A stretch of DNA of 64,000 bases from Bacteroides fragilis (GTDB lineage Bacteria > Bacteroidota > Bacteroidia > Bacteroidales > DTGW01), in NCBI GenBank assembly GCA_945889005.1, contig CAMDBI010000008.1:10473-74472 (forward strand). Direction: 5' to 3'. This document shows, piece after piece, positions 14,576 to 57,384 of this stretch. Both the position numbers and the translations under genes were made by a program. Numbering within the stretch: the stretch's first letter is position 1; the number at the start of each line of letters is the position of its first letter. The notes beneath the pieces were generated by a model. It ran no database searches, had not been told where the DNA came from, and was given only the letters and a program-made list of their open reading frames with translations.

Positions 14576-14758
14576 AGTCAAAATAAAATATAAATAAGAA
14601 AAATATTTTTTTGAAAATAAAAAAAATATAATTTTACATCTCGAAATGTGGAAAAATTTGCGTCGGCTTGTAACCACTTTAAAAAAATACTAAAGAGACA
14701 ATCGCCTCCTTTTTGTTGTTGATTATAAGCCGCTTATTAAGATTCCCTTTTTAAATTT

Positions 14759-14786
14759 TCAATTGTCAATTAACAATTATCAATTA
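14759..14786. repeat. Heptanucleotide array TCAATTR x4 in the metK 5' leader
   Basis: tcaattg tcaatta acaatta tcaatta, ending 5 nt before the metK ATG (14792). It uses the same unit as the array at 63820-63854. Confidence 0.6.
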
Positions 14787-14791
14787 AAATT

Positions 14792-16081
14792 ATGGCTTAT
14801 TTATTTACATCAGAATCAGTATCTGAAGGTCATCCAGACAAAGTTTCGGATCAAATTTCAGACGCGCTGTTAGACGAATTTCTACGTCACGACCCCAATT
14901 CAAAAGTAGCATGCGAAACCCTCTGTACCACCGGTTTGGTAGTTCTTGCAGGCGAAGTAAAATCTAAAGGAGTAATCGATGCTCAAGGCGTTGCTCGCAT
15001 GGTAGTCGAAAAAATTGGCTACAACAAAGGCGAATATATGTTCGAAAGCAAATCGTGCGGTGTAATCTCTGCGATTCACGAACAATCGCCCGATATTAAC
15101 CAAGGTGTTGAACGCAAAAAAGACGAAGAACAAGGTGCAGGCGACCAAGGTATGATGTTTGGTTATGCAACCAACGAAACCAAAAACCTGATGCCTTTAA
15201 CTCTCGACCTGGCTCACCTTCTATTGCTCGAGCTTGCCGACATACGCCGCGAAGGCAAACAAATGAAATACCTTCGTCCCGATGCAAAATCGCAAGTAAC
15301 CATCGAATATGGCGACGACAACAAACCAAAGAAAATCCACACCATCGTTATTTCGACCCAACACGACGATTTCGGTGCCGAAAAAGAAATGCTTGCAACC
15401 ATCAAAAAAGACGTTGCAGATATTCTCATCCCTCGTGTTTTGAAAAAATTGAGCAAAGAAAACAAAGCTTTGTTCGAAAGCAAATATATCCTTCACGTGA
15501 ACCCAACCGGTAAGTTTGTAATTGGTGGTCCACACGGCGATACTGGTTTAACAGGTCGTAAGATCATCGTAGATACTTATGGTGGTCACGGTGCTCACGG
15601 TGGTGGAGCATTCTCAGGTAAAGACTCTTCGAAAGTAGACCGTTCGGCAGCTTATGCAGCTCGTCACATTGCAAAAAACATAGTAGCAGCAGGTATTGCC
15701 GAAAAAGCACTGGTACAAGTGGCGTATGCCATTGGTGTTGCTCAACCAGTTAGTGTTTTTGTCGATACTTATGGAACAGCCAAGGTAAAAGCAAAAGATG
15801 GCGAAATAGCCGAAAAAATTGCTAAAATATTTGACCTTCGCCCTTATGCTATTGTTAGCCGTTATGGTTTGAAAAACCCTGTATTTTTACCAACCGCTTC
15901 GTATGGTCACTTTGGACGCGATAGCTACGAACAAGAAGTTGAAGTCTACTACAAAGACGAAACAACCAAAACCAAGAAAGTAAAAGGCAAAGACATCAAT
16001 GTAAAAACTGTAAAATTCTTTGCTTGGGAAGAACTCAGCTATGTCGATGCCATTAAAAAAGAATTTGGCATTAAGAAATAA
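14792..16081 (+). CDS. metK: S-adenosylmethionine synthase
   Basis: 429-aa ORF with [25 protein letters not shown] and GGGAFSGKD. Confidence 0.97.
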
Positions 16082-38153: not shown

Positions 38154-38187
38154 CTTCGACTCCGCTCAGCAACCAAAGTATATATTT

Positions 38188-41521: not shown

Positions 41522-44500
41522 TTACCAATACACAATAACCAAGCCAGCTGCGCCATTGCCACCAACTCCACCATCTACAGCACCACCACCGCCACCGCCG
41601 CCAGGAAATGTTCCTGCAGATCCATTTTTATTTGTATTTGTACTACCGCCTACACCGCCACTACCACCAGCACCTCCAAACGGACTAGAGCCGCCACTGC
41701 CACCAGCGGCGCCAGTTGTTTCCGCTCCATCATTTCCAGCACTTCCGGCTACTTTAAGTGTTCCAGCACCAGATGTTGCACCACCAGCACCTCCGGAAAC
41801 AGCATTTACCGATTCCCCACCATTTGCAAATACAACAAAACTACCTGCTGTAAAACTACTAGCGCCGCCAGGAGTTGTAGTCTCGCCAGGCCCTGCAGCA
41901 CCCACTACCACCGCACATGTAAAAACGCTTGATACATCTACCAGGCTTTCACTGTATGCTCCACCGCCACCACCGCCATTACTTCTAGTAGAAGAAGCAG
42001 TACCACCACCACCACCAGCGCCCCATACTTTTACCCAGGCATATTTTACACCTGCTGGTTTAGTCCAGGTACCACTATCCGTAAATGCCTGCATTCCATT
42101 AGGGAAGCCAACTCTTCTTATTGCTCCACCTGTTCCTACAGATAATACATCATCATCTGTGTCCCAAGCTATTTGTCCTTCTGCGGTAGCTGCTGAATTA
42201 TCAGATGATTGAGGGAGCCTTAAACCTTCGGCATTGTCCGAATTATTTATTTGTGATAAATCTAGCATAACATCATCGGGCACAATTACCCCTCCCGAAC
42301 CTGCCTTTAAGGTTAAAGAAGAAGTTCCAGAGCCACCAATACTAATATCATTTGAGGTCATTGCAGAACCAATACTAATAGTGCCGGCTATTTGAAAGTT
42401 GCCAATGGCAATGGTATTTGCGCCTGTGCCACCAATGGAAATGGTGTTAGCAACCGCCCCTGTACCAATATTGATGGTTTTGGTTGCAGTTGCATCTGTA
42501 GCTATATTAACAGTTCCACCACCTATACCATTTGCAATATTAACATTTTGAGTTCCTGCAGAAGAGCCAATATCAATCACTGTTGTAGAACCTGCAACAC
42601 CGCCTGTTCCAATATTAATAGTCTTATTACTTCCAGAGACAGTAGCACCTCCAAATAAATTAACTGTTTGTGCAGCAGTTGAAGTATTGCCGATATTAAG
42701 AGTAGTAGCTGCATTTGCCACATTCAAAATAGTTGCAGCCCCTGCAAAATTAACAGTTGTTGCAGTTGCGTTGATTAAATCAAAAGATGCAGAAGGGGTA
42801 GTGAGAGATGTGGTAACATCAGGGCTAGTAAAGCTCTGAATACCAGTGAATGTTTGAGCTGCATCGGTACGGGCAAATTCAGCATCACTTAGTGCTGTAT
42901 TGAATTGAGCCAATGTGCCAGATATACCGACTATTGAGGATTGATCGCCGTTATTGCTGCCTGATATTGATGCATCTCCTGTTAATGTTAATATTCTATC
43001 AGAATTTCCTGTTCTTATATTTAATGTTCTACCAGCTGTTAATGTCTCATCTGGTTTTATTGTAAGTGCATTGTCGTCATCGCCTTTTACAACCAATCCT
43101 GTTTGATTTAACAAAACTGAGGTAATGTCTGTATTTGCTCCTTTGGCAGCTTTATTATCAAGTTGTCCCTGAATGCCTGATGTTACGCCATCGACATAGT
43201 TTAGTTCGGTAGCTGTTGAGGTTAAAACTACATCTTCATTTATTTTTGGACTTGTTAATGTTTTACCGGTAAGAGTTTCAGTTCCTGCTAAGGTTGCCAA
43301 AGTGCCTGTTGTTGGCAATGTGACATTTGAAGCTGTAGTTGTTGTTAATGTCGTAGAAAATCCACCTGCTGTAACCAAATTGCCTGCTAAAGTTATTGTT
43401 TTACCTGTGTTTGCTACACCAGTACCTCCGTTTGCGCCTAATACAATGCCTGTAACATTGGCAGATGTACCACTGACATTGCCCGTTACATCGCCTGTGA
43501 GCGAACCACTAAATGATGTGGATGCTAAAACACCTGTGCTTGGGTTAAAGGTTAATTTTGAATCACTTACTGTTTGAGCCAAATTACCTGTATTAGCTGA
43601 CACAAATGTGGGATAAAATGTTGCATTCGATGCTACATCGTTTGTTATAGCAGTGGTTGTGGCGGAACCTGCATTGCCTGTAACAGTTGTTTGATCACCT
43701 GTGTTGCTGCCTGATATTGTAGAGGTTCCTGCAACTGTTAATGTGTAACTATCTGTTGAGCCTCCTTCTATTGTATAACCACTTGCCAATTCGGTTGGTA
43801 CTAAACCATTGATACTTGTCGCCGTTGCAACTCCCAATGTTGAAGTTCCGTTAACGTTTAAAGTACCTGCAATAGATGTGTTTCCAGACGCATCGTCAAC
43901 AGTAAATTTAGTGCCACCAACAGTCAAATCTGCATTAGTGATATCAACACCAGTATTAACTTTAAGATTACCACCAAATGTAACCTGTCCATTACCAGTT
44001 GTAATAGTTCCATTTCCAGCAGTGATGTTGCCGTCTGGGGCAATGCTAAGGGCAGTGGCACCTGCGTCATTATTGATTGTTAAAGAAGTTCCTGTTTTCA
44101 CTCCTATAGTTGTAGCCTTTATCAGATCACCACCCAATTGAACAGTTCCAGAGTTATTCTCTAGTCCATTGTTTACACTAATACCAGTGATTGCATCACG
44201 TACAGCTTTCTCAGTCGGAAGGGTAGTATGGTCACCAGTTGCATCGAGGGTGTTGGCTATATCGTTGACTTTAGCACCAGTGGCTAAAGTTAGATTAGTT
44301 GCTATTGTGACATCGCCTCCATTCAAAGTTGTTGCGCCTTGTATTGTAATAACATCTGCAGCATTGTCGCCAATGTTGATAGTGTTACTGTTGATATTAA
44401 CAGCACCTCCAATTACAGTAACCCCGGCATTACCTGTAATCAATCCCGCAGAAGTAATAGTACCCGTTCCAGTAGTACTGATATTGCCGCTTGTTGTAAT

Positions 44501-45196
44501 TGCATCGCCTACATTTGACGGACTAAGTGCTGTACCTGTACGATTCCAAAACCCTAATACGCCTATACTTGGAGGTATTGATGTTAATTTTTTTGATGCG
44601 TCTGTGTAAATGCCATTATTTGGAGTTAATCCAGTAATAGTTGCCCCTGCAAACTGAGGGCTTGCCCCCGTATGTATTTCCTGAGGCAATTTAATAACTA
44701 TTGAACCTGCTGTGGTTGTGGTATCGATAATAACCTGATTTTCGAAACCATTCAAAGTTTTGTATTCAAAGTCTGTTCCAGTTTTGTTAATACCTAAAAT
44801 TTGGTGCTTATTACCCAAACGTATATTGGTCGAAGTAATCGATCGCCACTCCCCAGCCACAGTGTCGCGGTACCAAAACGATTTGGTTTCTTTATCATAA
44901 ACTAGCAATCCGTTTGCAGCTTGTGCCGACAGTGCGTTTCTCTCGTCAGTCGTCAACCTCGGCACCAAAAACCCTTTGTCTGCTGTTCGTAGCTCTAGTA
45001 TGGCGCTTGAGTGGGCTGTAAATTTGCTGTCGCCTATACCTACTCCGCTTTGGGCATTGGCAATAAGCGTCGCAAAAAACAATAAAACAAAAACGACTGT
45101 CGTTGATATAGCACGACTCCTATATTGGGAATATTCCCAAACACTCGAACTTTTAACGCTTTGCAAAAAGACGAATTGATTTTTTGAGGTATTCAT
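41522..45196 (-). CDS. Large secreted tail-fibre-like protein with a glycine-rich C-terminal domain
   Basis: 1224 aa with a signal/anchor (TTVVFVLLFFATLIANAQ) and a conserved N-module (SSAILELRTADKGFLVPRLTTDERNAL...GLLVYD). A long T/G/N/A/V-rich repeat region contains LPTEKAVRDAI and SGSNTGDQ / SGSNNGDQ motifs. The C-terminus reads GTWTKPAGVKYAWVKVWGAGGGGG...GGGGGGGAVDGGVGGNGAAGLVIVYW. Confidence 0.8.
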   Translation of the reverse strand: MNTSKNQFVFLQSVKSSSVWEYSQYRSRAISTTVVFVLLFFATLIANAQSGVGIGDSKFTAHSSAILELRTADKGFLVPRLTTDERNALSAQAANGLLVYDKETKSFWYRDTVAGEWRSITSTNIRLGNKHQILGINKTGTDFEYKTLNGFENQVIIDTTTTAGSIVIKLPQEIHTGASPQFAGATITGLTPNNGIYTDASKKLTSIPPSIGVLGFWNRTGTALSPSNVGDAITTSGNISTTGTGTITSAGLITGNAGVTVIGGAVNINSNTINIGDNAADVITIQGATTLNGGDVTIATNLTLATGAKVNDIANTLDATGDHTTLPTEKAVRDAITGISVNNGLENNSGTVQLGGDLIKATTIGVKTGTSLTINNDAGATALSIAPDGNITAGNGTITTGNGQVTFGGNLKVNTGVDITNADLTVGGTKFTVDDASGNTSIAGTLNVNGTSTLGVATATSINGLVPTELASGYTIEGGSTDSYTLTVAGTSTISGSNTGDQTTVTGNAGSATTTAITNDVASNATFYPTFVSANTGNLAQTVSDSKLTFNPSTGVLASTSFSGSLTGDVTGNVSGTSANVTGIVLGANGGTGVANTGKTITLAGNLVTAGGFSTTLTTTTASNVTLPTTGTLATLAGTETLTGKTLTSPKINEDVVLTSTATELNYVDGVTSGIQGQLDNKAAKGANTDITSVLLNQTGLVVKGDDDNALTIKPDETLTAGRTLNIRTGNSDRILTLTGDASISGSNNGDQSSIVGISGTLAQFNTALSDAEFARTDAAQTFTGIQSFTSPDVTTSLTTPSASFDLINATATTVNFAGAATILNVANAATTLNIGNTSTAAQTVNLFGGATVSGSNKTINIGTGGVAGSTTVIDIGSSAGTQNVNIANGIGGGTVNIATDATATKTINIGTGAVANTISIGGTGANTIAIGNFQIAGTISIGSAMTSNDISIGGSGTSSLTLKAGSGGVIVPDDVMLDLSQINNSDNAEGLRLPQSSDNSAATAEGQIAWDTDDDVLSVGTGGAIRRVGFPNGMQAFTDSGTWTKPAGVKYAWVKVWGAGGGGGTASSTRSNGGGGGGAYSESLVDVSSVFTCAVVVGAAGPGETTTPGGASSFTAGSFVVFANGGESVNAVSGGAGGATSGAGTLKVAGSAGNDGAETTGAAGGSGGSSPFGGAGGSGGVGGSTNTNKNGSAGTFPGGGGGGGAVDGGVGGNGAAGLVIVYW

Positions 45197-46342: not shown

Positions 46343-46384
46343 GTCATTTGTCATTAGTCATTAGTAATTAGTCATTAGTCATTT
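46343..46384. repeat. Heptanucleotide array GTCATTA x6
   Basis: gtcattt gtcatta gtcatta gtaatta gtcatta gtcattt, ending 6 nt before ATG 46391, in the divergent recO / 46391 spacer. Confidence 0.85.
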
Positions 46385-46390
46385 ATTATT

Positions 46391-46795
46391 ATGGAACTAT
46401 CAATATCAACACCAACATTGCTTTTTTCGGGAATATCTTTGGTATTACTTGCTTTTACCAATCGCTTTCTGGCCCTTGCTCAACTTATTAGAAACTTGCA
46501 TTCGGAATACAAACTCAATCCAACAACATTGTTGCATAAACAAATAAAAAATATACGTCTTCGACTACGGCTCATACGTACTACACAAGTGAGCGGAATG
46601 TCGAGTATGCTGCTTTGTGTGGTTAGCATGATTTTCATCTATTTCAGATTGAGTTTGGCTGCCGATATCTGTTTTGCACTGGCACTGCTCCTAATGATGT
46701 TGTCGCTCATGTATTCAATTTGGGAAATACAAATATCTGTTCATGCTCTCGACACACACCTTAGCGACATTGAAGAAAAAAACGACACTGATTAA
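46391..46795 (+). CDS. DUF2721-like membrane protein
   Basis: 134 aa with three hydrophobic segments; LLAFTNRFLALAQLIRNLH resembles the DUF2721 N-terminal motif. Confidence 0.65.
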   Translation: MELSISTPTLLFSGISLVLLAFTNRFLALAQLIRNLHSEYKLNPTTLLHKQIKNIRLRLRLIRTTQVSGMSSMLLCVVSMIFIYFRLSLAADICFALALLLMMLSLMYSIWEIQISVHALDTHLSDIEEKNDTD

Positions 46796-46847: not shown

Positions 46848-48854
46848 ATGAAAATAAAACACAAACTATTATTCAGTTTTGGAATTACCATTCTATTAAC
46901 AGGATTTATTTTGGTTTTATTTGCATTTTATAGCTACCGCACCACACAAAAGATAACAACACTCAAAAATTATTACTCAGATTTTATCGACGATGCCGGC
47001 TCAACACAAAAAACAATCCAACAAATCAATTTTAACATCGAGCATTTCGAAATTCTTTTTAACGACAAACAATTTCTTAAACTCGAGAAATCAAAACAAG
47101 AATTAAAGGCTTATACAGATAAGCTCAATTCTGTAATAGAACGTTGGAGAAGCGATGTCGATAGGGCAGTTGCAGTGGGAAAGCAAATTGATATACCATA
47201 CAAAATCGATGAGTTTAATAAGTTGAGCAATGAAATTCGAATTTATGAAGAATTAGTAAAAAATTTAATTCAGTATAATACTTTTGAACTCACATATAAG
47301 GATATAAGGAACAAAGAATTAGCAATTTACAAAGTATCGTTGCAAATCGAAACCAAATTGCAAAAAATTCAGGATTTATTGAAATTCGAAATAGATACAA
47401 ATCTAAATGAGCTTTATGTATCAACCAACAAATACTTTTACTTAAGCATTTCAACAGCAATATTACTAATCTTGTTGTCGATATTTGCGGGCATTTCGGT
47501 TTACAATTCGATCAATACACCTATTGAACAATTAAAAGAAAATTTTAAAAAGATCGATCGAGGCGATTATTTAAATGTAATCGATTACAATAAAAAAGAT
47601 GAAATTGGCGAACTTATTGAATCGTTCAATCATGTTGCAAAAAATTTACACGATGTTCAGCAGGAATTAAAGACAAAAAATAGCGAATTGCTCGAAATTA
47701 ACCAATCGCTATTGAATGCAAAAGACAAGGCAGAAGAAGCCGATCGTTTGAAATCTGCTTTTTTGGCAAATATGAGCCACGAAATAAGAACCCCACTTAA
47801 TGGTATTATTGGCTACGCCGATCTGCTACGAAACCCCAACAAAACGCCCGAAAAACAAATTCGCTATGTCGATATGATTAAAAATAGCGGTAAACAACTG
47901 CTTCATATAATAAACGATATCATAGACATCTCACGAATAGAAGCCGGTACAATGAAAAAATACGAATCGGTTTTTGATCTTAATTTTATTTTGGACGAAG
48001 CACGTCAATCGTTTGTTGCAGAAACCAAAAAAAGAAACAAAAATATTGAAATACTTTTTTTCAAAACCTTTGAAAAACCATTGTTTATAAAAAGCGATGA
48101 ATACAAACTACGACAAATAATTAACAACCTAATAGGCAATGCAATAAAATTTACCAATATCGGCTATATTGAATACTCGTACAAAATTAAAAATAATTTT
48201 ATAGATTTTTATGTAAAAGATACCGGCATCGGAATAGCTCCAGAAAATCATGAGCATTTGTTCAACCGGTTTAACCAAACCTCGTCGGATATTGCCCATC
48301 GCGAAGGTGGTACTGGTTTAGGTTTATCGATTTCAAAAGGTTTAGTTGAAATTTTAGGAGGTAGTATATGGTTCGAATCGGTAGAAAACCAAGGAAGCGT
48401 TTTTTATTTTTCCATTCCATTTCTGCCCGACGACTTATTGAACCAATCTGACAATATAATTGAACACATAAACTTTAACTGGGAAAATAAAACCATTCTA
48501 ATAGTAGAAGATAATATCATAAATGCCGAGTATATTTCGGAATTGCTGAGCGAAACAAATGTAAAAGTACATTACGAAAATTCGGGCTCACAAGCAATTG
48601 AACGCTGCATGTCCGACAAATCTATCGATTTGGTTCTTATGGATATTCGCCTTCCCGATCTCGATGGTTACGAAACAACTCAGATCATTAAACAGTATAG
48701 ACCCGAACTTCCGGTTATAGCACAAACGGCTCATGCATCTGACGAACATCGGCAGAAATGTATCGATGCCGGATGCAACGATTTTATTTCAAAACCTATC
48801 GAACACGTAGCTTTACTCAATCTGCTCGATAAATTTCTGAGTAAAAAAGAGTAA
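46848..48854 (+). CDS. Hybrid sensor histidine kinase / response regulator
   Basis: Starts at ATG 46848 (MKIKHKLLFSF). It has two TMs flanking a sensor region, HAMP, the H-box SHEIRTPLNGI, N/G boxes (NLIGNAIKFT, GTGLGLSI) and a C-terminal receiver (ILIVEDN...LVLMDIRLPDLDG...K). Confidence 0.9.
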   Translation: MKIKHKLLFSFGITILLTGFILVLFAFYSYRTTQKITTLKNYYSDFIDDAGSTQKTIQQINFNIEHFEILFNDKQFLKLEKSKQELKAYTDKLNSVIERWRSDVDRAVAVGKQIDIPYKIDEFNKLSNEIRIYEELVKNLIQYNTFELTYKDIRNKELAIYKVSLQIETKLQKIQDLLKFEIDTNLNELYVSTNKYFYLSISTAILLILLSIFAGISVYNSINTPIEQLKENFKKIDRGDYLNVIDYNKKDEIGELIESFNHVAKNLHDVQQELKTKNSELLEINQSLLNAKDKAEEADRLKSAFLANMSHEIRTPLNGIIGYADLLRNPNKTPEKQIRYVDMIKNSGKQLLHIINDIIDISRIEAGTMKKYESVFDLNFILDEARQSFVAETKKRNKNIEILFFKTFEKPLFIKSDEYKLRQIINNLIGNAIKFTNIGYIEYSYKIKNNFIDFYVKDTGIGIAPENHEHLFNRFNQTSSDIAHREGGTGLGLSISKGLVEILGGSIWFESVENQGSVFYFSIPFLPDDLLNQSDNIIEHINFNWENKTILIVEDNIINAEYISELLSETNVKVHYENSGSQAIERCMSDKSIDLVLMDIRLPDLDGYETTQIIKQYRPELPVIAQTAHASDEHRQKCIDAGCNDFISKPIEHVALLNLLDKFLSKKE

Positions 48855-48940
48855 AAATAGTTAATAGTTGAATTTGTGTTTCGACAGGCTCAACAACCGA
48901 AGTTGAAAGTTGAAAGCAAAAAAAATAACTCTATTACTTT

Positions 48941-49134
48941 CCACTGTTCACTTTCCACTGTTCACTATCCACTGTTCACTGTCCACGGTTCACTGTCCAC
49001 GGTTCACTGTCCACGGTTCACTGTCCACTGTTCACTATCCACTGTTCACTGTCCACGGTTCACTGTCCACGGTTCACTGTCCACGGTTCACTGTCCACGG
49101 TTCACTGTTCACTGTTCACGGTTCACTGTTCACT
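48941..49134. repeat. Heptanucleotide array YCACKGT x28 (14-nt CCACGGTTCACTGT super-unit; 70-nt higher-order duplication)
   Basis: 194 nt in one 7-nt phase. Heptads 3-12 (48955-49024) are repeated exactly as heptads 13-22 (49025-49094). The array is preceded by GTTGAAA x2 (48901-48917) and its last unit overlaps the carB stop codon (49133-49135). Confidence 0.95.
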
Positions 49135-52100
49135 AAACCGTGTATTCGTCCCAGCTTTTAATAGCGATATCGTCTACATCTTTCTTGCACACAGCCGTTA
49201 AAAACGAATTTGCCAAACGAGCATTGGTCAAAAGCGGTATATTGAAATCGATTGCTCCACGGCGTATTTCGTAATCGTTGTTCAACTCGAGCTTCGAAAG
49301 GTTTTTAGGTATGTTTACCACCATGTCGAATTTCTTGTTGCGGATCAAGTCCATTACATTGGGGCTTTGGTTTTCGTCGGGCCAGTATACCATGGTGCTT
49401 TCAACTCCATTGAGTTTAAAAAACTCGTGGGTTCCACGGGTGGCAAACAATTCAAATCCCTTTTCGAGCAAAAGACGAGCAGGTCCGAGCATTTCGACTT
49501 TCGACTTTGTTTCGCCGGTCGAAAACATAATATTATTCTTTGGAATACGATAACCCACAGACAGCATCGATTTCAACAAAGCTTCGTAATAATCGTCGCC
49601 AATGCATCCTACCTCGCCAGTCGAAGCCATGTCGACTCCCAATACGGGATCAGCTTTTTGTAAACGCGAGAACGAGAATTGTGGTGCTTTTACACCTATA
49701 TGCTCAATCTCAAAAATCGATTTGTCGAGTTTTTCGACCTTTTCGCCCAACATTACTTTGGTAGCCATTTCAATAAAGTTCTGTTTCAAAACCTTAGAAA
49801 CAAAAGGGAAACTGCGCGATGCACGAAGGTTACATTCAATAACCTTTATATCGTTGTCTTTGGCAAGAAACTGAATGTTGAATGGGCCAGAAATATTAAG
49901 TTCTTCGGCTATTTCGCGACTAATGCGCTTAATACGACGAACCGTTTCGAAATAAATTTTTTGTGCAGGAAATACCATAGTTGCATCGCCCGAGTGAACA
50001 CCAGCAAACTCAACATGTTCGGAAATAGCATACGCCATTATTTCTCCATCTTTTGCTACTGCATCAATTTCAATCTCTTTGGCATTCTCGATAAACTCCG
50101 AAACTACAACAGGATGCTCTTTCGATACTTTAGCTGCCAGTCTAAGAAATTGCTCAAGCTCTTCGTTGTTGGAACACACGTTCATAGCAGCTCCCGAAAG
50201 CACGTACGACGGGCGAACCAAAACAGGAAAACCCACTTTATCGACAAATGTATGTATTTCGTCCATATTGGTAAGTTCTTGCCAACGAGGTTGATCTATT
50301 TCAAGGCGATCGAGCATCGACGAAAATTTGTGTCGGTTCTCGGCACGGTCGATCGACTCGGGTGCTGTACCCAAAATTGGGACGCTTTGCTGATGCAAAC
50401 GCATTACCAAATTATTGGGTATTTGCCCGCCCATCGAAACAACTACTCCTTTTGGAGTCTCGAGATCGATAATGTCCATCACTCGTTCAAACGAAAGTTC
50501 GTCGAAATATAATCGATCGCACATATCGTAGTCGGTACTAACCGTTTCGGGATTGTAGTTGATCATAATAGAGCGATAGCCATACTTATGAGCAGTCGTT
50601 ATTGCATTTACCGAGCACCAATCGAACTCTACAGAACTTCCAATACGGTAAGCTCCAGAGCCAAGAACAATTACCGACTTATTGTCGTTCAGAAAATCGA
50701 TATCGTGAACGATTCCATGATAGGTCATGTACAAATAATTGGTCTTTGCAGGGTATTCGGCTGCAAGGGTATCAATTTGCTTCACGCTTGGAAGTACACC
50801 TAACTTTTTTCGATAGTTACGAGCCCTGAGCATGGCTTCGTGCATTGAGCCTTCAAATTCTTTTTCGACCGAACGAGCTATTTGAAAATCGGAAAAGCCT
50901 TTTTTCTTGGCTTCCAAAATGGTATCGGCACTAAGTTCTTCTAGTTTATTATATCCGGCAAGGGTTTTCTGAAGATCGAATATGCTTTTGAGTTTGTACA
51001 GGAACCATTTGTCAATTTTTGTCAGATCGTGAATTTTGTCGACCGTGTAGCCTTTGTCAAATGCTTTTTCGATAACGAAAATACGCATATCGGTTGGTTC
51101 GCTTAGCTCGCGGTCTACATCTTCAATCTCTATATCGCGATTGCCTACAAAACCGTGCATGCCCTGACCAATCATACGCAAGCCCTTTTGAATAGCCTCT
51201 TCAAACGAGCGACCAATACTCATTACCTCGCCTACAGACTTCATCGAAGAGCCAATCTGCTTCGAAACACCAATAAACTTGTTCAAATCCCAACGAGGAA
51301 TTTTACAAACAATATAATCGAGTGCAGGCTCAAAAAATGCCGATGTAGTCTTAGTTACAGAGTTTGTTAGTTCGTGAAGACCATATCCTAGCGACAATTT
51401 GGCTGCAACAAACGCAAGAGGATAACCAGTGGCCTTCGATGCCAAAGCCGACGAGCGCGACAAACGAGCATTTACTTCTATTACACGGTAATCTTCAGAA
51501 TTCGGGTCAAGGGCATATTGAATGTTACATTCGCCAATAATACCAATATGGCGAATGGTACGTATCGAAATTTCGCGAAGCTTATGATATTCGCTATTGG
51601 TAAGCGTTTGCGAAGGAGCAACCACAATACTCTCGCCAGTATGAATACCTAGCGGATCGAAATTCTCCATGTTACAAACCGTAATACAGTTGTCGAACTG
51701 GTCGCGTACAACCTCATATTCAACTTCTTTCCATCCTTTGAGAGATTCTTCGACCAGTATTTGTGGTGCATACGAAAAGGCTTTCTCGGCCATTTTACGC
51801 AGTTCGTCTACATTGTTAGAAAAACCACTACCTTGACCGCCCAATGTATAAGCAGCTCTGATAATAACCGGGAAACCCAGACGTTCTGCTGCCTTTACTG
51901 CATCATCTACCGTTGTAACAGCTTCGCTGCGACAGGTTTTTACATCTATCTCGTTCAGTAGATTGACAAAAAGTTCGCGATCTTCGGTATTCATAATGGC
52001 TTTTACTGGTGTACCAAGCACCCGAACATTGTATTTTTCTAAAACTCCCGATGTATATAGTGCCGTACCACAGTTAAGCGCAGTTTGACCACCAAAAGAA

Positions 52101-52357
52101 AGGAGAATACCATCGGGCTGTTCCTTTTTTATTACTTTTTCGACAAAATAAGGAGTAACCGGGTGAAAATAGATCTTATCGGCAATCCCTTCAGATGTTT
52201 GAACAGTTGCAATATTCGGATTAATAAGAATAGTAAATACACCTTCTTCTTTCAATGCTTTTAATGCTTGCGAACCAGAATAATCAAATTCGCCTGCTTC
52301 ACCAATTTTCAAGGCTCCCGAACCAAGAATAACTACTTTTTTAACCGTTTTATCCAT
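49133..52357 (-). CDS. carB: Carbamoyl-phosphate synthase large subunit
   Basis: About 1074 aa with duplicated ATP-grasp halves (VVILGSGALKIGEAGEFDYSGSQA; VIVLGSGAYRIGSSVEFDWC) and an MGS-like C-terminus. The first ATG is 52357; the track start 52381 is TTG. Confidence 0.95.
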   Translation of the reverse strand: MDKTVKKVVILGSGALKIGEAGEFDYSGSQALKALKEEGVFTILINPNIATVQTSEGIADKIYFHPVTPYFVEKVIKKEQPDGILLSFGGQTALNCGTALYTSGVLEKYNVRVLGTPVKAIMNTEDRELFVNLLNEIDVKTCRSEAVTTVDDAVKAAERLGFPVIIRAAYTLGGQGSGFSNNVDELRKMAEKAFSYAPQILVEESLKGWKEVEYEVVRDQFDNCITVCNMENFDPLGIHTGESIVVAPSQTLTNSEYHKLREISIRTIRHIGIIGECNIQYALDPNSEDYRVIEVNARLSRSSALASKATGYPLAFVAAKLSLGYGLHELTNSVTKTTSAFFEPALDYIVCKIPRWDLNKFIGVSKQIGSSMKSVGEVMSIGRSFEEAIQKGLRMIGQGMHGFVGNRDIEIEDVDRELSEPTDMRIFVIEKAFDKGYTVDKIHDLTKIDKWFLYKLKSIFDLQKTLAGYNKLEELSADTILEAKKKGFSDFQIARSVEKEFEGSMHEAMLRARNYRKKLGVLPSVKQIDTLAAEYPAKTNYLYMTYHGIVHDIDFLNDNKSVIVLGSGAYRIGSSVEFDWCSVNAITTAHKYGYRSIMINYNPETVSTDYDMCDRLYFDELSFERVMDIIDLETPKGVVVSMGGQIPNNLVMRLHQQSVPILGTAPESIDRAENRHKFSSMLDRLEIDQPRWQELTNMDEIHTFVDKVGFPVLVRPSYVLSGAAMNVCSNNEELEQFLRLAAKVSKEHPVVVSEFIENAKEIEIDAVAKDGEIMAYAISEHVEFAGVHSGDATMVFPAQKIYFETVRRIKRISREIAEELNISGPFNIQFLAKDNDIKVIECNLRASRSFPFVSKVLKQNFIEMATKVMLGEKVEKLDKSIFEIEHIGVKAPQFSFSRLQKADPVLGVDMASTGEVGCIGDDYYEALLKSMLSVGYRIPKNNIMFSTGETKSKVEMLGPARLLLEKGFELFATRGTHEFFKLNGVESTMVYWPDENQSPNVMDLIRNKKFDMVVNIPKNLSKLELNNDYEIRRGAIDFNIPLLTNARLANSFLTAVCKKDVDDIAIKSWDEYTV

Positions 52358-57220: not shown

Positions 57221-57384
57221 CGTGGATAGTAGACCGTGAACCGTTGACAGTGGACCGTGAACCGTAAATTTCACGTTTCACGTTTCACGGTCCACGGTTC
57301 ACGAATTACGGTTCACGACTCACGGTTCACGGTTCACGGTTCACGGTTCACGAATTACGGTTCACGAATTACGGTTCACGAATT
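57221..57384. repeat. Heptanucleotide array: CGTGRAC x7, then inverted TTCACGR x16
   Basis: The orientation switch at about 57268 creates a perfect 12-bp inverted repeat, GTGGACCGTGAA (57250-57261) / TTCACGGTCCAC (57284-57295). The array occupies most of the argR-argG spacer. Confidence 0.95.

What the first reader, a model, noticed from the sequence alone, without database searches (positions are those of the whole stretch)
48879..49135. 194-nt, 28-unit CACKGTY array with a 70-nt higher-order duplication between convergent genes, overlapping the carB stop
The largest array alternates CCACGGT and TCACTGT, forming a 14-nt super-unit. Heptads 3-12 (48955-49024) are repeated exactly as heptads 13-22 (49025-49094), which indicates recent unequal-exchange or slippage growth. 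The array is preceded by the TTCGAC..GCTCA..CAACC box and two GTTGAAA units. Its final unit supplies the carB TAG (CTA at 49133-49135). It fills the place where terminators for the histidine kinase gene and carB would be expected, but it has no inverted half and therefore no obvious hairpin. The ORF track yields two 83-86-aa ghost ORFs here (FTVHGSLSTVHCPR...).
Basis: seen in the sequence. Interest (0 to 1): 0.65.

Follow-up and report, generated by a model that had tools for sequence, protein, structure and literature searches.

The report
Largest heptamer repeat array behind carB
The 199-base stretch is real and is the longest of about 200 seven-base tandem repeat arrays filling the gaps between genes in this uncultured Bacteroidales genome. 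It is a new example of a kind of bacterial repeat already described in other phyla, whose function is still unknown.

Summary
Bases 48936-49134 are a 28-unit heptamer array (NGTGRAC on the carB strand) with a 14-nt dimer unit and an exact 70-nt block duplication. It overlaps the carB TAG and has no inverted half.

It is not a one-off:
- The genome holds 197-293 period-7 arrays, against about 20 each for periods 6 and 8. Of the 197, 152 lie mostly outside ORF calls.
- 57 arrays are of the GTGRAC type, and this is the longest.
- The family is lineage-specific. A 4-unit pattern has 149 hits here, 0 in three same-family genomes, and 1-6 hits in 12 of 300 genomes of the order.

The array follows a strict family rule. 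The purine-rich strand reads outward from a gene boundary, here the carB stop. The far end decays and stays about 77-90 nt from the next gene. The same rule was published for the GGGAATC and GGGGAYT heptamers of Xanthomonas and Nostoc.

Best reading (0.6): a slippage-grown heptanucleotide simple-sequence repeat, tolerated in this orientation and with no shown function.

Main rival (about 0.17): its C-rich, unstructured HK-sense transcript loads Rho.

Array length could not be checked independently.

The parts
46848..48854 (+). Hybrid histidine kinase gene (HAMP-HisKA-HATPase_c-receiver), stop TAA at 48852-48854. It converges on carB.
   Evidence: ORF list, translation, Pfam. The start at 46848 (MKIKHK...) is inferred. 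An identical 668-aa protein is on record, and the next best relative is only 46% identical.
48880..48898 (+). Box TTCGACAGGCTCAACAACC. It is a one-base-shorter variant of the dispersed motif TTCGACNNNGCTCANNAACC and here has no flanking stem.
   Evidence: There are 68 genome copies at up to 2 mismatches, where I estimate about 6 by chance. Most form the loop of a hairpin with a variable stem. A 97% identical 38-nt copy lies at C8:79465-79502. No Rfam match.
48900..48916 (+). 2.4 units of a second heptamer family (AGTTGAA), reading outward from the HK stop.
   Evidence: TRF. The same unit forms arrays at more than 10 other loci.
48905..48942 (-). Weak A/U-rich hairpin on the carB strand whose 3' arm is the U8 run (A8 on the + strand at 48918-48925). 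It is the only terminator-like feature after the array, and it is not canonical.
   Evidence: RNAfold gives -9.8 kcal/mol for 48900-48945(-). The terminator scan did not call it.
48936..49134 (-). The array: 28 heptads, NGTGRAC on the carB-sense strand, alternating AGTGAAC and CGTGGAC. Units are clean at the carB end and decay at the far end (AGTGGAA, AGTAATA).
48955..49024 (.). First copy of the exact 70-nt (10-unit) block.
   Evidence: string identity true.
49025..49094 (.). Second copy of the exact 70-nt block.
49133..52357 (-). carB (carbamoyl-phosphate synthase large subunit, 1074 aa), ending ...KSWDEYTV*. Its TAG overlaps the first array unit by 2 nt.
   Evidence: Relatives end ...SWDEYK*...SWDEYR* or ...SWNEYTV*, so the C-terminus is native length.

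Best explanation
The array is a heptanucleotide simple-sequence repeat and the largest member of a lineage-specific GTGRAC family.

Shown:
- It grew by duplication of existing units, from heptad to 14-nt dimer to an exact 70-nt block.
- It lies in the family's standard place. The purine-rich strand reads outward from a gene boundary (the carB stop), with clean units at that end and decayed units at the far end.
- It is not a hairpin.

Inferred:
- Growth is by replication slippage or unequal exchange, in spacer DNA that is free of promoters.
- This orientation is the tolerated one. On the carB strand each GTGAAC unit carries TGA, so three units close all three frames and no slip can lengthen carB. 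The opposite strand has no stop codon and no ATG, GTG or TTG.
- The array has no dedicated function. Any effect on the ends of the carB and HK transcripts is a by-product.
For: Period 7 is singled out genome-wide:
- 197 arrays at lag 7, against 20 at lag 6 and 18 at lag 8. TRF periods 7, 14 and 21 give 196, 143 and 86 rows.
- 152 of 197 arrays lie mostly outside ORF calls, in a genome that is 89% coding.
- Only 6 arrays lie in divergent spacers, 122 in tandem spacers and 19 in convergent spacers. The genome has 357, 1577 and 313 spacers of these types.

Block duplication is exact and copies the rare variants.

Polarity:
- 28 GTGRAC arrays follow a stop codon in sense, at a median of 4 nt. 26 of the 28 are within 15 nt.
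- 22 arrays face a gene start on the non-coding strand, at a median of 35 nt.
- The far side is at a median of 77 nt. The 5'-side neighbour is closer in 38 of 50 cases (p = 3e-4).
- The AATKACT family shows the same polarity in 42 of 45 cases (p = 9e-10).
- Unit decay is steeper on the 5' side (Wilcoxon p = 1.4e-4).

This array fits: -1 nt to the carB stop and 91 nt to the HK stop.

The family is lineage-specific and is not carried by viruses (16 hits in 2.9 million viral contigs).

The same position and orientation rule, and the same shortage in divergent spacers, are published for heptamer repeats in Xanthomonas and Nostoc, with no function found (PMC4692102). Heptamer over-representation and the slippage idea are cited there and in PMC4679880.
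Against: - Plain slippage does not explain why 57 dispersed arrays share one core.
- It does not explain why the polarity is so strict. An inverted partner arm lies on the 3' side in 22 of 57 arrays and never on the 5' side.
- The stop-codon and start-codon filter cannot explain the same polarity in GGGAATC, which has no stop codon.
- No strain comparison or read data could be obtained, so instability and true length are untested.
- A function in transcript-end formation is not excluded.
Confidence: 0.6

Rival explanations
1. Orientation-specific Rho loading site. An RNA polymerase that reads through from the HK gene toward carB transcribes the pyrimidine-rich strand. This yields about 250 nt of C-rich, G-poor, unstructured, untranslated RNA on which Rho can load. 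HK transcripts would then end before running antisense into carB. carB's own transcript carries the G/A-rich strand and passes through.
For: - The + strand of the array is 35% C and 16% G.
- Every 78-nt window from 48881 onward has a C/G ratio of 1.8-3.0.
- The + strand folds worse than 195 of 200 shuffles as DNA.
- Rho is present, scoring 628 bits against a cut-off of 509.
- No intrinsic terminator lies in the spacer.
- The family rule places the C-rich strand on any transcript moving toward the adjacent gene.
Against: - The AT-rich heptamer families obey the same polarity without a C-rich inward strand.
- Arrays 8-35 nt upstream of start codons would place a Rho site in the gene's own leader.
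- There is no transcript data.
- 28 units is far more than a Rho loading site needs.
Confidence: 0.17
2. Binding array for a protein that reads 7-nt steps. It could act on DNA, or on RNA in the way cold-shock/OB-fold proteins bind one heptamer each. It would act on nucleoid structure or on mRNA 3' ends.
For: - The period is fixed at 7 while unit sequences differ between families.
- 57 loci share one core.
- Period-21 superstructure is common, with 86 TRF rows.
- A heptamer-binding protein has been proposed for TAACTGA and for the Nostoc repeats (PMC4679880; bioRxiv 10.1101/2022.06.06.494920).
Against: - No candidate protein was identified.
- Several unrelated unit sequences would need several proteins or a sequence-blind one.
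- The family is absent from same-family genomes.
- Array length varies from 3 to 28 units with no preferred size.
Confidence: 0.1
3. Overgrown arm of a heptad-stem hairpin terminator. In this family the complete element is (GTGRAC)n-loop-(GTYCAC)m right after a stop codon. Here the carB-side arm expanded and the partner arm was lost or never formed.
For: - 22 of 57 arrays have an inverted partner within 100 nt, always on the 3' side.
- Such pairs fill the convergent spacers at C19:62153-62277 and C9:41441-41603, with each arm starting 3-5 nt after a stop, or overlapping it by 4 nt at C9:41441.
Against: - No trace of GTYCAC-type units is seen on the carB-sense strand between the array and the HK stop. 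That stretch holds AGTTGAA-type units and the box instead.
- 35 of 57 arrays are single-armed.
- I did not test whether the paired forms terminate transcription.
Confidence: 0.08
4. The unit count is an assembly product. The array exists, but its length and the 70-nt duplication reflect how the assembler walked a repeat cycle.
For: - Exact repeats of 75 nt at shift 70 and 51 nt at shift 14 cannot be resolved with k-mers shorter than that.
- The only other contig holding carB (Logan, ERR3719163) is 100% identical over 6272 nt and breaks 47 nt into the array.
Against: - The contig runs through the array in a 118-kb contig.
- No contig of this assembly ends in a period-7 array.
- The rare-variant pattern is coherent.
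- 199 nt is within reach of paired 150-nt reads.
- An error here would more likely collapse the array than expand it.
Confidence: 0.1

Closest known systems
GGGAATC (Xanthomonas) and GGGGA(C/T)T (Nostoc) intergenic heptamer repeats (Rehm et al. 2015, PMC4692102)
   Same: - 7-nt unit in tandem arrays at about 100 dispersed intergenic sites.
- Mostly between co-directional genes and under-represented between divergent genes.
[quoted passage not shown]
- Some arrays overlap the stop codon, and some form inverted pairs.
- Not linked to mobile elements. No function found.
   Different: - The unit here is GTGRAC, with no G-tracts and hence no G-quadruplex.
- The host is Bacteroidales.
- Arrays reach 28 units with 14-nt and 70-nt higher-order structure.
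- Several unrelated heptamer families coexist in one genome.
STRR heptanucleotide repeats of heterocystous cyanobacteria, as cited in PMC4692102 for Calothrix PCC 7601. The unit sequences are from my memory.
   Same: Several different 7-nt units, each tandemly repeated at many intergenic sites of one genome. Lineage-specific. Function unknown.
   Different: Different units and a different phylum. The positional rule was not compared here.
TAACTGA direct repeats of Beggiatoaceae, cyanobacteria and five Bacteroidetes (MacGregor 2015, PMC4679880)
   Same: - Intergenic heptamer arrays, with long arrays (up to 43 copies) in some Bacteroidetes alongside other heptamers.
- Orientation flips between sites upstream of starts and sites downstream of stops.
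- Absent from close relatives at the same junction.
- Contigs of relatives break inside the arrays.
   Different: - Most TAACTGA sets are 2-6 units, a few bases upstream of start codons.
- A role in translation was proposed there.
- This array lies at two 3' ends.
Contingency-locus simple-sequence repeats (phase variation)
   Same: Tandem short units that change in number by slippage.
   Different: Those sit in promoters or in the 5' part of coding regions of surface or restriction genes and switch them on and off. This array sits between two stop codons, next to a housekeeping gene.
Intrinsic (hairpin plus U-tract) terminators
   Same: It occupies the place after convergent stop codons where such terminators normally lie.
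   Different: No inverted half, no G+C-rich stem next to a U-tract, and folding no better than shuffled sequence.

Membership tests
Dispersed intergenic heptameric simple-sequence repeats (LSSR/STRR-like) | Head-to-tail tandem copies of a 7-nt unit | tested here: met
   TRF period 14 (2 x 7), 94% matches. The heptad register is listed.
Dispersed intergenic heptameric simple-sequence repeats (LSSR/STRR-like) | The same unit repeated at many separate loci, with period 7 over-represented against neighbouring periods | tested here: met
   57 GTGRAC arrays with 389 units. Lag 7 gives 197 arrays, lag 6 gives 20 and lag 8 gives 18.
Dispersed intergenic heptameric simple-sequence repeats (LSSR/STRR-like) | Strong bias to non-coding DNA and under-representation between divergent genes | tested here: met
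   152 of 197 arrays are mostly intergenic in an 89% coding genome. 6 of 147 lie in divergent spacers, which make up 16% of all spacers.
Dispersed intergenic heptameric simple-sequence repeats (LSSR/STRR-like) | Array lies close to the ORF on the 5' side of its purine-rich strand, whatever that ORF's orientation (rule of PMC4692102) | tested here: met
   38 of 50 (p = 3e-4), and 42 of 45 for the AATKACT family. This array is -1 nt from the carB stop and 91 nt from the HK stop.
Dispersed intergenic heptameric simple-sequence repeats (LSSR/STRR-like) | Copy number varies between close strains | not testable with these tools
Two metagenome scans were empty. The nearest HK relative is 46% identical. 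No same-genus genome is held.
Intrinsic terminator | G+C-rich hairpin directly followed by a U-tract | tested here: not met
   No site in the spacer, no inverted repeat, and fold z-scores of -1.2 and -0.2. There is only a -9.8 kcal/mol A/U hairpin that contains the U8 run.
Rho-dependent terminator (rut site) | About 80 nt or more of untranslated RNA with C well above G and little structure; Rho present | tested here: met
   C/G ratio of 1.8-3.0 across 250 nt of the HK-sense strand. Weak folding. Rho gene present.
Rho-dependent terminator (rut site) | Rho-dependent 3' ends downstream of the site | not testable with these tools
   No transcript data.
Phase-variation contingency repeat | Repeat lies in a promoter or reading frame, so that unit number switches a gene on or off | tested here: not met
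   It lies between two stop codons. On the carB strand TGA closes every frame.
CRISPR array | Repeats of 24-48 nt separated by unique spacers | tested here: not met
   Units are contiguous with no spacers.
TTCGAC...GCTCA hairpin-loop element (the box) | Conserved loop of about 20 nt enclosed by a variable complementary stem | tested here: not met
   The genome copies mostly have stems. The copy at 48880-48898 is one base short and is flanked by direct AGTTGAA-type units, not a stem.

The most novel reading that the evidence does not exclude
Heptamer arrays may be polar elements anchored at gene boundaries. They would grow only at the end that faces the gene, until selection stops them at the stop codon or the core promoter. 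They would serve as one-way transcription insulators: any polymerase approaching the gene from outside transcribes the start-codon-free, pyrimidine-rich strand and is removed (by Rho here), while outward transcripts pass. The same polarity in Bacteroidales (this genome), Xanthomonas, Nostoc and, in part, Flexibacter would then reflect one unrecognised cross-phylum mechanism rather than neutral slippage.
Probability: 0.12. Interest if true: 0.7.

Novelty: new member of a known kind. Interest (0 to 1): 0.35.

Why it matters
Intergenic heptamer arrays have been known since about 1990 and are the commonest long simple repeats in many bacteria, yet nobody knows why the period is 7 or what they do.

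This genome is a dense, clean case in a phylum where they have barely been described:
- It holds at least four unit families.
- It shows a strict outward polarity and an inverted-pair arrangement that occurs in one sense only.
- It shows a decay gradient along the arrays.

The unit here cannot form a G-quadruplex. The published polarity rule therefore cannot depend on quadruplexes.

On its own, the single array behind carB is an ordinary member of the family and changes no annotation, except that the two ghost ORFs should not be called.

Tried and rejected
- Hairpin or terminator: rejected.
- Known RNA family: none, for the array or the box, even at E up to 1.
- Coding repeat: the ghost ORFs have no Pfam match above the curated cut-off.
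- Box-plus-array composite element: the box is real, but it is not enriched near arrays (7 of 68 boxes, against 6% of intergenic bases).
- Viral or mobile carriage: only 16 hits among 2.9 million viral contigs.
- ECF-sigma promoter array (TGAAC...CGT): considered from the sequence and dropped. The period allows spacers of 14 or 21 nt only, not 16-17. The spacer requirement is from my own knowledge.
- Orthologous junction in relatives: six same-family and two same-order genomes have other genes after carB.
- Independent copies of the locus: two metagenome pattern scans were empty. Exact-protein look-ups for the HK gave nothing. The one carB contig is 100% identical and stops inside the array. 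The homologue search found nothing above 46% identity.
No read depth, length check or RNA evidence could therefore be obtained.
Full report
**1. The observation**

Tandem Repeats Finder reports 48936-49134, period 14, 14.2 copies, 94% matches, score 300. That is the highest-scoring repeat in the window.

In heptad register the + strand alternates CCACKGT and TCACTGT types. On the carB strand the units are AGTGAAC and CGTGGAC. Bases 48955-49024 are identical to 49025-49094, and the exact self-match at a shift of 70 runs for 75 nt. This is therefore a block duplication, not parallel change.

The carB stop (CTA at 49133-49135 on the + strand) overlaps the first unit by two bases. No inverted repeat is present, and the consensus scan finds no terminator-like site in the spacer. 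Folding either strand, as RNA or as DNA, is no better than dinucleotide shuffles (z -1.2, -0.2, -0.4, +1.9). The two ORFs across the array have no Pfam match above the curated cut-off. The 83-aa ORF has only a sub-threshold 5-residue ENOD40 hit.

The flanking genes are a hybrid histidine kinase (HAMP, HisKA, HATPase_c, receiver) and carB. carB ends ...KSWDEYTV*. Relatives end at the same point, and one ends ...NEYTV*, so the array has not altered the protein.

**2. It is one of many**

The window lies in a 3.26-Mb, 36% G+C genome of 62 contigs. A lag scan finds 197 period-7 arrays covering 9.1 kb, against 20 arrays for period 6 and 18 for period 8. TRF rows with periods 7, 14 and 21 number 196, 143 and 86.

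Of the 197 arrays, 152 lie mostly outside ORF calls, although 89% of the genome is coding. There are several unit families:
- GTGRACN: about 46 arrays by the lag scan, and 57 by core chaining with 389 units.
- AATTACT/AATGACT: about 56 arrays.
- AGTTGAA: 11 arrays.
- AATTGAC: 8 arrays.

The carB array is the longest of all.

**3. Position and orientation rule**

I oriented every GTGRAC array so that the purine-rich strand reads 5' to 3'. The results are:
- 28 of 50 arrays follow a gene's stop codon in sense, at a median distance of 4 nt. 26 of the 28 are within 15 nt.
- 22 arrays face a gene start from the non-coding strand, at a median of 35 nt.
- The other end is at a median of 77 nt from the next gene in both classes.
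- The 5'-side neighbour is the closer one in 38 of 50 cases (p = 3e-4).

The AATKACT family shows the same polarity in 42 of 45 cases (p = 9e-10). Its medians are -2 nt to stops and 8 nt to starts.

Where an inverted partner arm exists, it is on the 3' side in 22 of 57 arrays and never on the 5' side. Paired arrays therefore always point toward each other. Residual unit similarity decays more slowly beyond the 3' end than beyond the 5' end (Wilcoxon p = 1.4e-4).

Arrays are rare in divergent spacers: 6 of 147, although such spacers are 16% of all spacers.

The carB array obeys all of this. It is -1 nt from the carB stop in sense and 91 nt from the HK stop. Its units are clean at the carB end and decayed at the far end (AGTGGAA, AGTAATA). 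Unlike 22 of its relatives, it has no partner arm.

The remaining spacer, read from the HK side, contains AGTTGAA-type units reading outward from the HK stop, then the box, then an A8 run.

**4. Relatives**

No same-genus genome is held. Six same-family and two same-order genomes carry other genes after carB. In two of them (G005, G008) I read a plain hairpin-plus-T terminator there, by eye from the printed sequence.

A four-unit GTGRACN pattern has 149 hits in this genome and none in three same-family genomes. It has 1-6 hits in 12 of 300 genomes sampled across the order. In 400 kb sampled from four same-family genomes, period-7 arrays occur at 0-2.5 per 100 kb, against 6.0 here. One of those arrays is of the AGTAATT type. 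The GTGRAC expansion is therefore specific to this lineage, while some AT-rich heptamers are older. Viral contigs hold only 16 matches.

**5. What could not be tested**

There is therefore no read depth, no length check and no RNA evidence.

Two metagenome scans with flank sequences found nothing. The only other contig with this carB is 100% identical over 6272 nt and stops 47 nt into the array. It is not independent, and it shows only that a short-k assembly cannot cross the array. In a 5.8-billion-protein collection the HK has no relative above 46% identity, so this species appears to have been sampled once.

The exact repeats are 75 nt at shift 70 and 51 nt at shift 14. The unit count therefore depends on the assembler having used long k-mers or read pairs. 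No contig of this assembly ends in a period-7 array.

**6. The box**

TTCGACNNNGCTCANNAACC occurs 68 times at up to 2 mismatches, where I estimate about 6 by chance. It usually forms the loop of a hairpin with a variable stem, sometimes as inverted doublets or in tandem. The copy at 48880-48898 is one base shorter and has no stem. Its only near-identical copy is 20 kb away on the same contig.

When GTGRAC units lie beside a box they are always GTGRAC upstream and GTYCAC downstream (10:1 and 0:12). However, boxes are not enriched near arrays: 7 of 68 boxes, against 6% of intergenic bases. No Rfam family matches. Earlier notes of this scan describe the same loop motif in other phyla. I confirmed only its presence and hairpin form in this genome.

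**7. Comparison with what is known**

Rehm et al. (PMC4692102) described GGGAATC repeats in Xanthomonas and GGGGA(C/T)T repeats in Nostoc with these properties:
- 89-93% are intergenic.
- They lie almost always nearer the ORF on their 5' side, irrespective of that ORF's orientation.
- Some overlap stop codons.
- They are under-represented between divergent genes.
- They vary in length between related species.
- No function was found.

MacGregor (PMC4679880) described TAACTGA arrays. These include long arrays in some Bacteroidetes, alongside other heptamers, that are absent from close relatives. Orientation reverses between sites upstream of starts and sites downstream of stops. Both papers cite the earlier survey that found heptanucleotides to be the commonest long simple repeats and proposed polymerase slippage. 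A Nostoc preprint reports modest effects of heptamer repeats on promoter regulation.

The present array is therefore a new member (new unit, new host lineage) of a known kind. Because GTGRAC cannot form a G-quadruplex, the shared polarity rule cannot depend on quadruplexes.

**8. Explanation**

Best reading (0.6): a slippage-grown heptanucleotide repeat without a dedicated function.
- The block duplication and the decay gradient are shown. The mechanism (slippage or unequal exchange) is inferred.
- The orientation is plausibly the tolerated one. On the carB strand GTGAAC carries TGA, so three units close all frames and no slip can extend carB. The opposite strand has no stop codon and no ATG, GTG or TTG (read from the sequence). 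This is why it yields ghost ORFs, and why it can sit upstream of starts elsewhere.
- This filter does not explain the same polarity in GGGAATC. Nor does it explain why 57 loci share one core, or why arrays abut gene boundaries at all. These points remain unexplained.

Main rival (0.17): a Rho loading site.
- The HK-sense transcript of the array is 35% C and 16% G. The C/G ratio is 1.8-3.0 over 250 nt, and the strand is poorly structured. Rho is present.
- The array could therefore end HK transcripts and shield carB from antisense transcription.
- Against this, the AT-rich families share the polarity without C-richness.

Lesser rivals are a heptad-reading binding protein, an overgrown arm of a heptad-stem hairpin, and a mis-counted assembly.

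**9. Verdict**

The feature is a real, lineage-specific, unusually large member of a known class of bacterial repeats whose function is unknown. Interest is moderate to low for the single locus. The genome-wide polarity is the more interesting lead.

Noticed in passing
G000 C7:33180-33234 (outside the window): A GTYCAC-oriented heptad array lies in frame inside an 899-aa ORF that looks like valyl-tRNA synthetase (my reading from the ...IATTRPETILGDTAV motif; not checked with Pfam). It sits just before that motif and encodes TVHGSxx repeats, so the stop-free orientation can survive inside a coding loop.
   Followed up: partly
genome-wide, e.g. window 46343-46391 and C1:87950-87990: AATTACT/AATGACT heptamer arrays (48 chains) sit either on stop codons (median -2 nt) or 8 nt upstream of start codons on the opposite strand. 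Their polarity is 42 of 45. They must lie inside 5' leaders.
   Followed up: partly
genome-wide; window 38155-38174 and 48880-48898; C9:102740/102818; C12:85061-85130: The box TTCGACNNNGCTCANNAACC has 68 copies. It usually forms the loop of a hairpin with a variable stem. It also occurs as inverted doublets about 80 nt apart and as a 24-nt tandem triplet. No Rfam match.
   Followed up: partly
G000 C12:78800-94700: At least ten box copies at intervals of roughly 0.9-2.4 kb, several sharing a conserved upstream segment (GGAAGCAGCAAT...). This suggests a tandem gene family, each copy followed by the box.
   Followed up: no
G000 C3, about 107,800 on the reverse strand (outside the window): A box copy is followed directly by four tandem 11-nt units (GGGACCGATTT). 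Repeats of other periods can therefore also start at a box.
   Followed up: no
window 57221-57380: An inverted pair of GTGRAC arrays (3 and 9 core units) lies in a divergent spacer, one of only two GTGRAC cases in that spacer type.
   Followed up: no
window 14642-14703 (+): SAM-II riboswitch (long-loop variant) just above the Rfam gathering score (46.6 against 44 bits), next to AT-rich repeats at 14592-14635 and heptads at 14754-14793.
   Followed up: no
window 41522-45196 (-): A 1224-aa ORF with CCACC/ACC-type short repeats at 41581-42017, that is, a low-complexity coding tail near its 3' end.
   Followed up: no
L032 (G006:C1:3787230-3787260): A same-family genome has three TAGACTA-like heptads right after its carB stop. 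The habit of placing heptads at this gene end may be older than the GTGRAC family.
   Followed up: no
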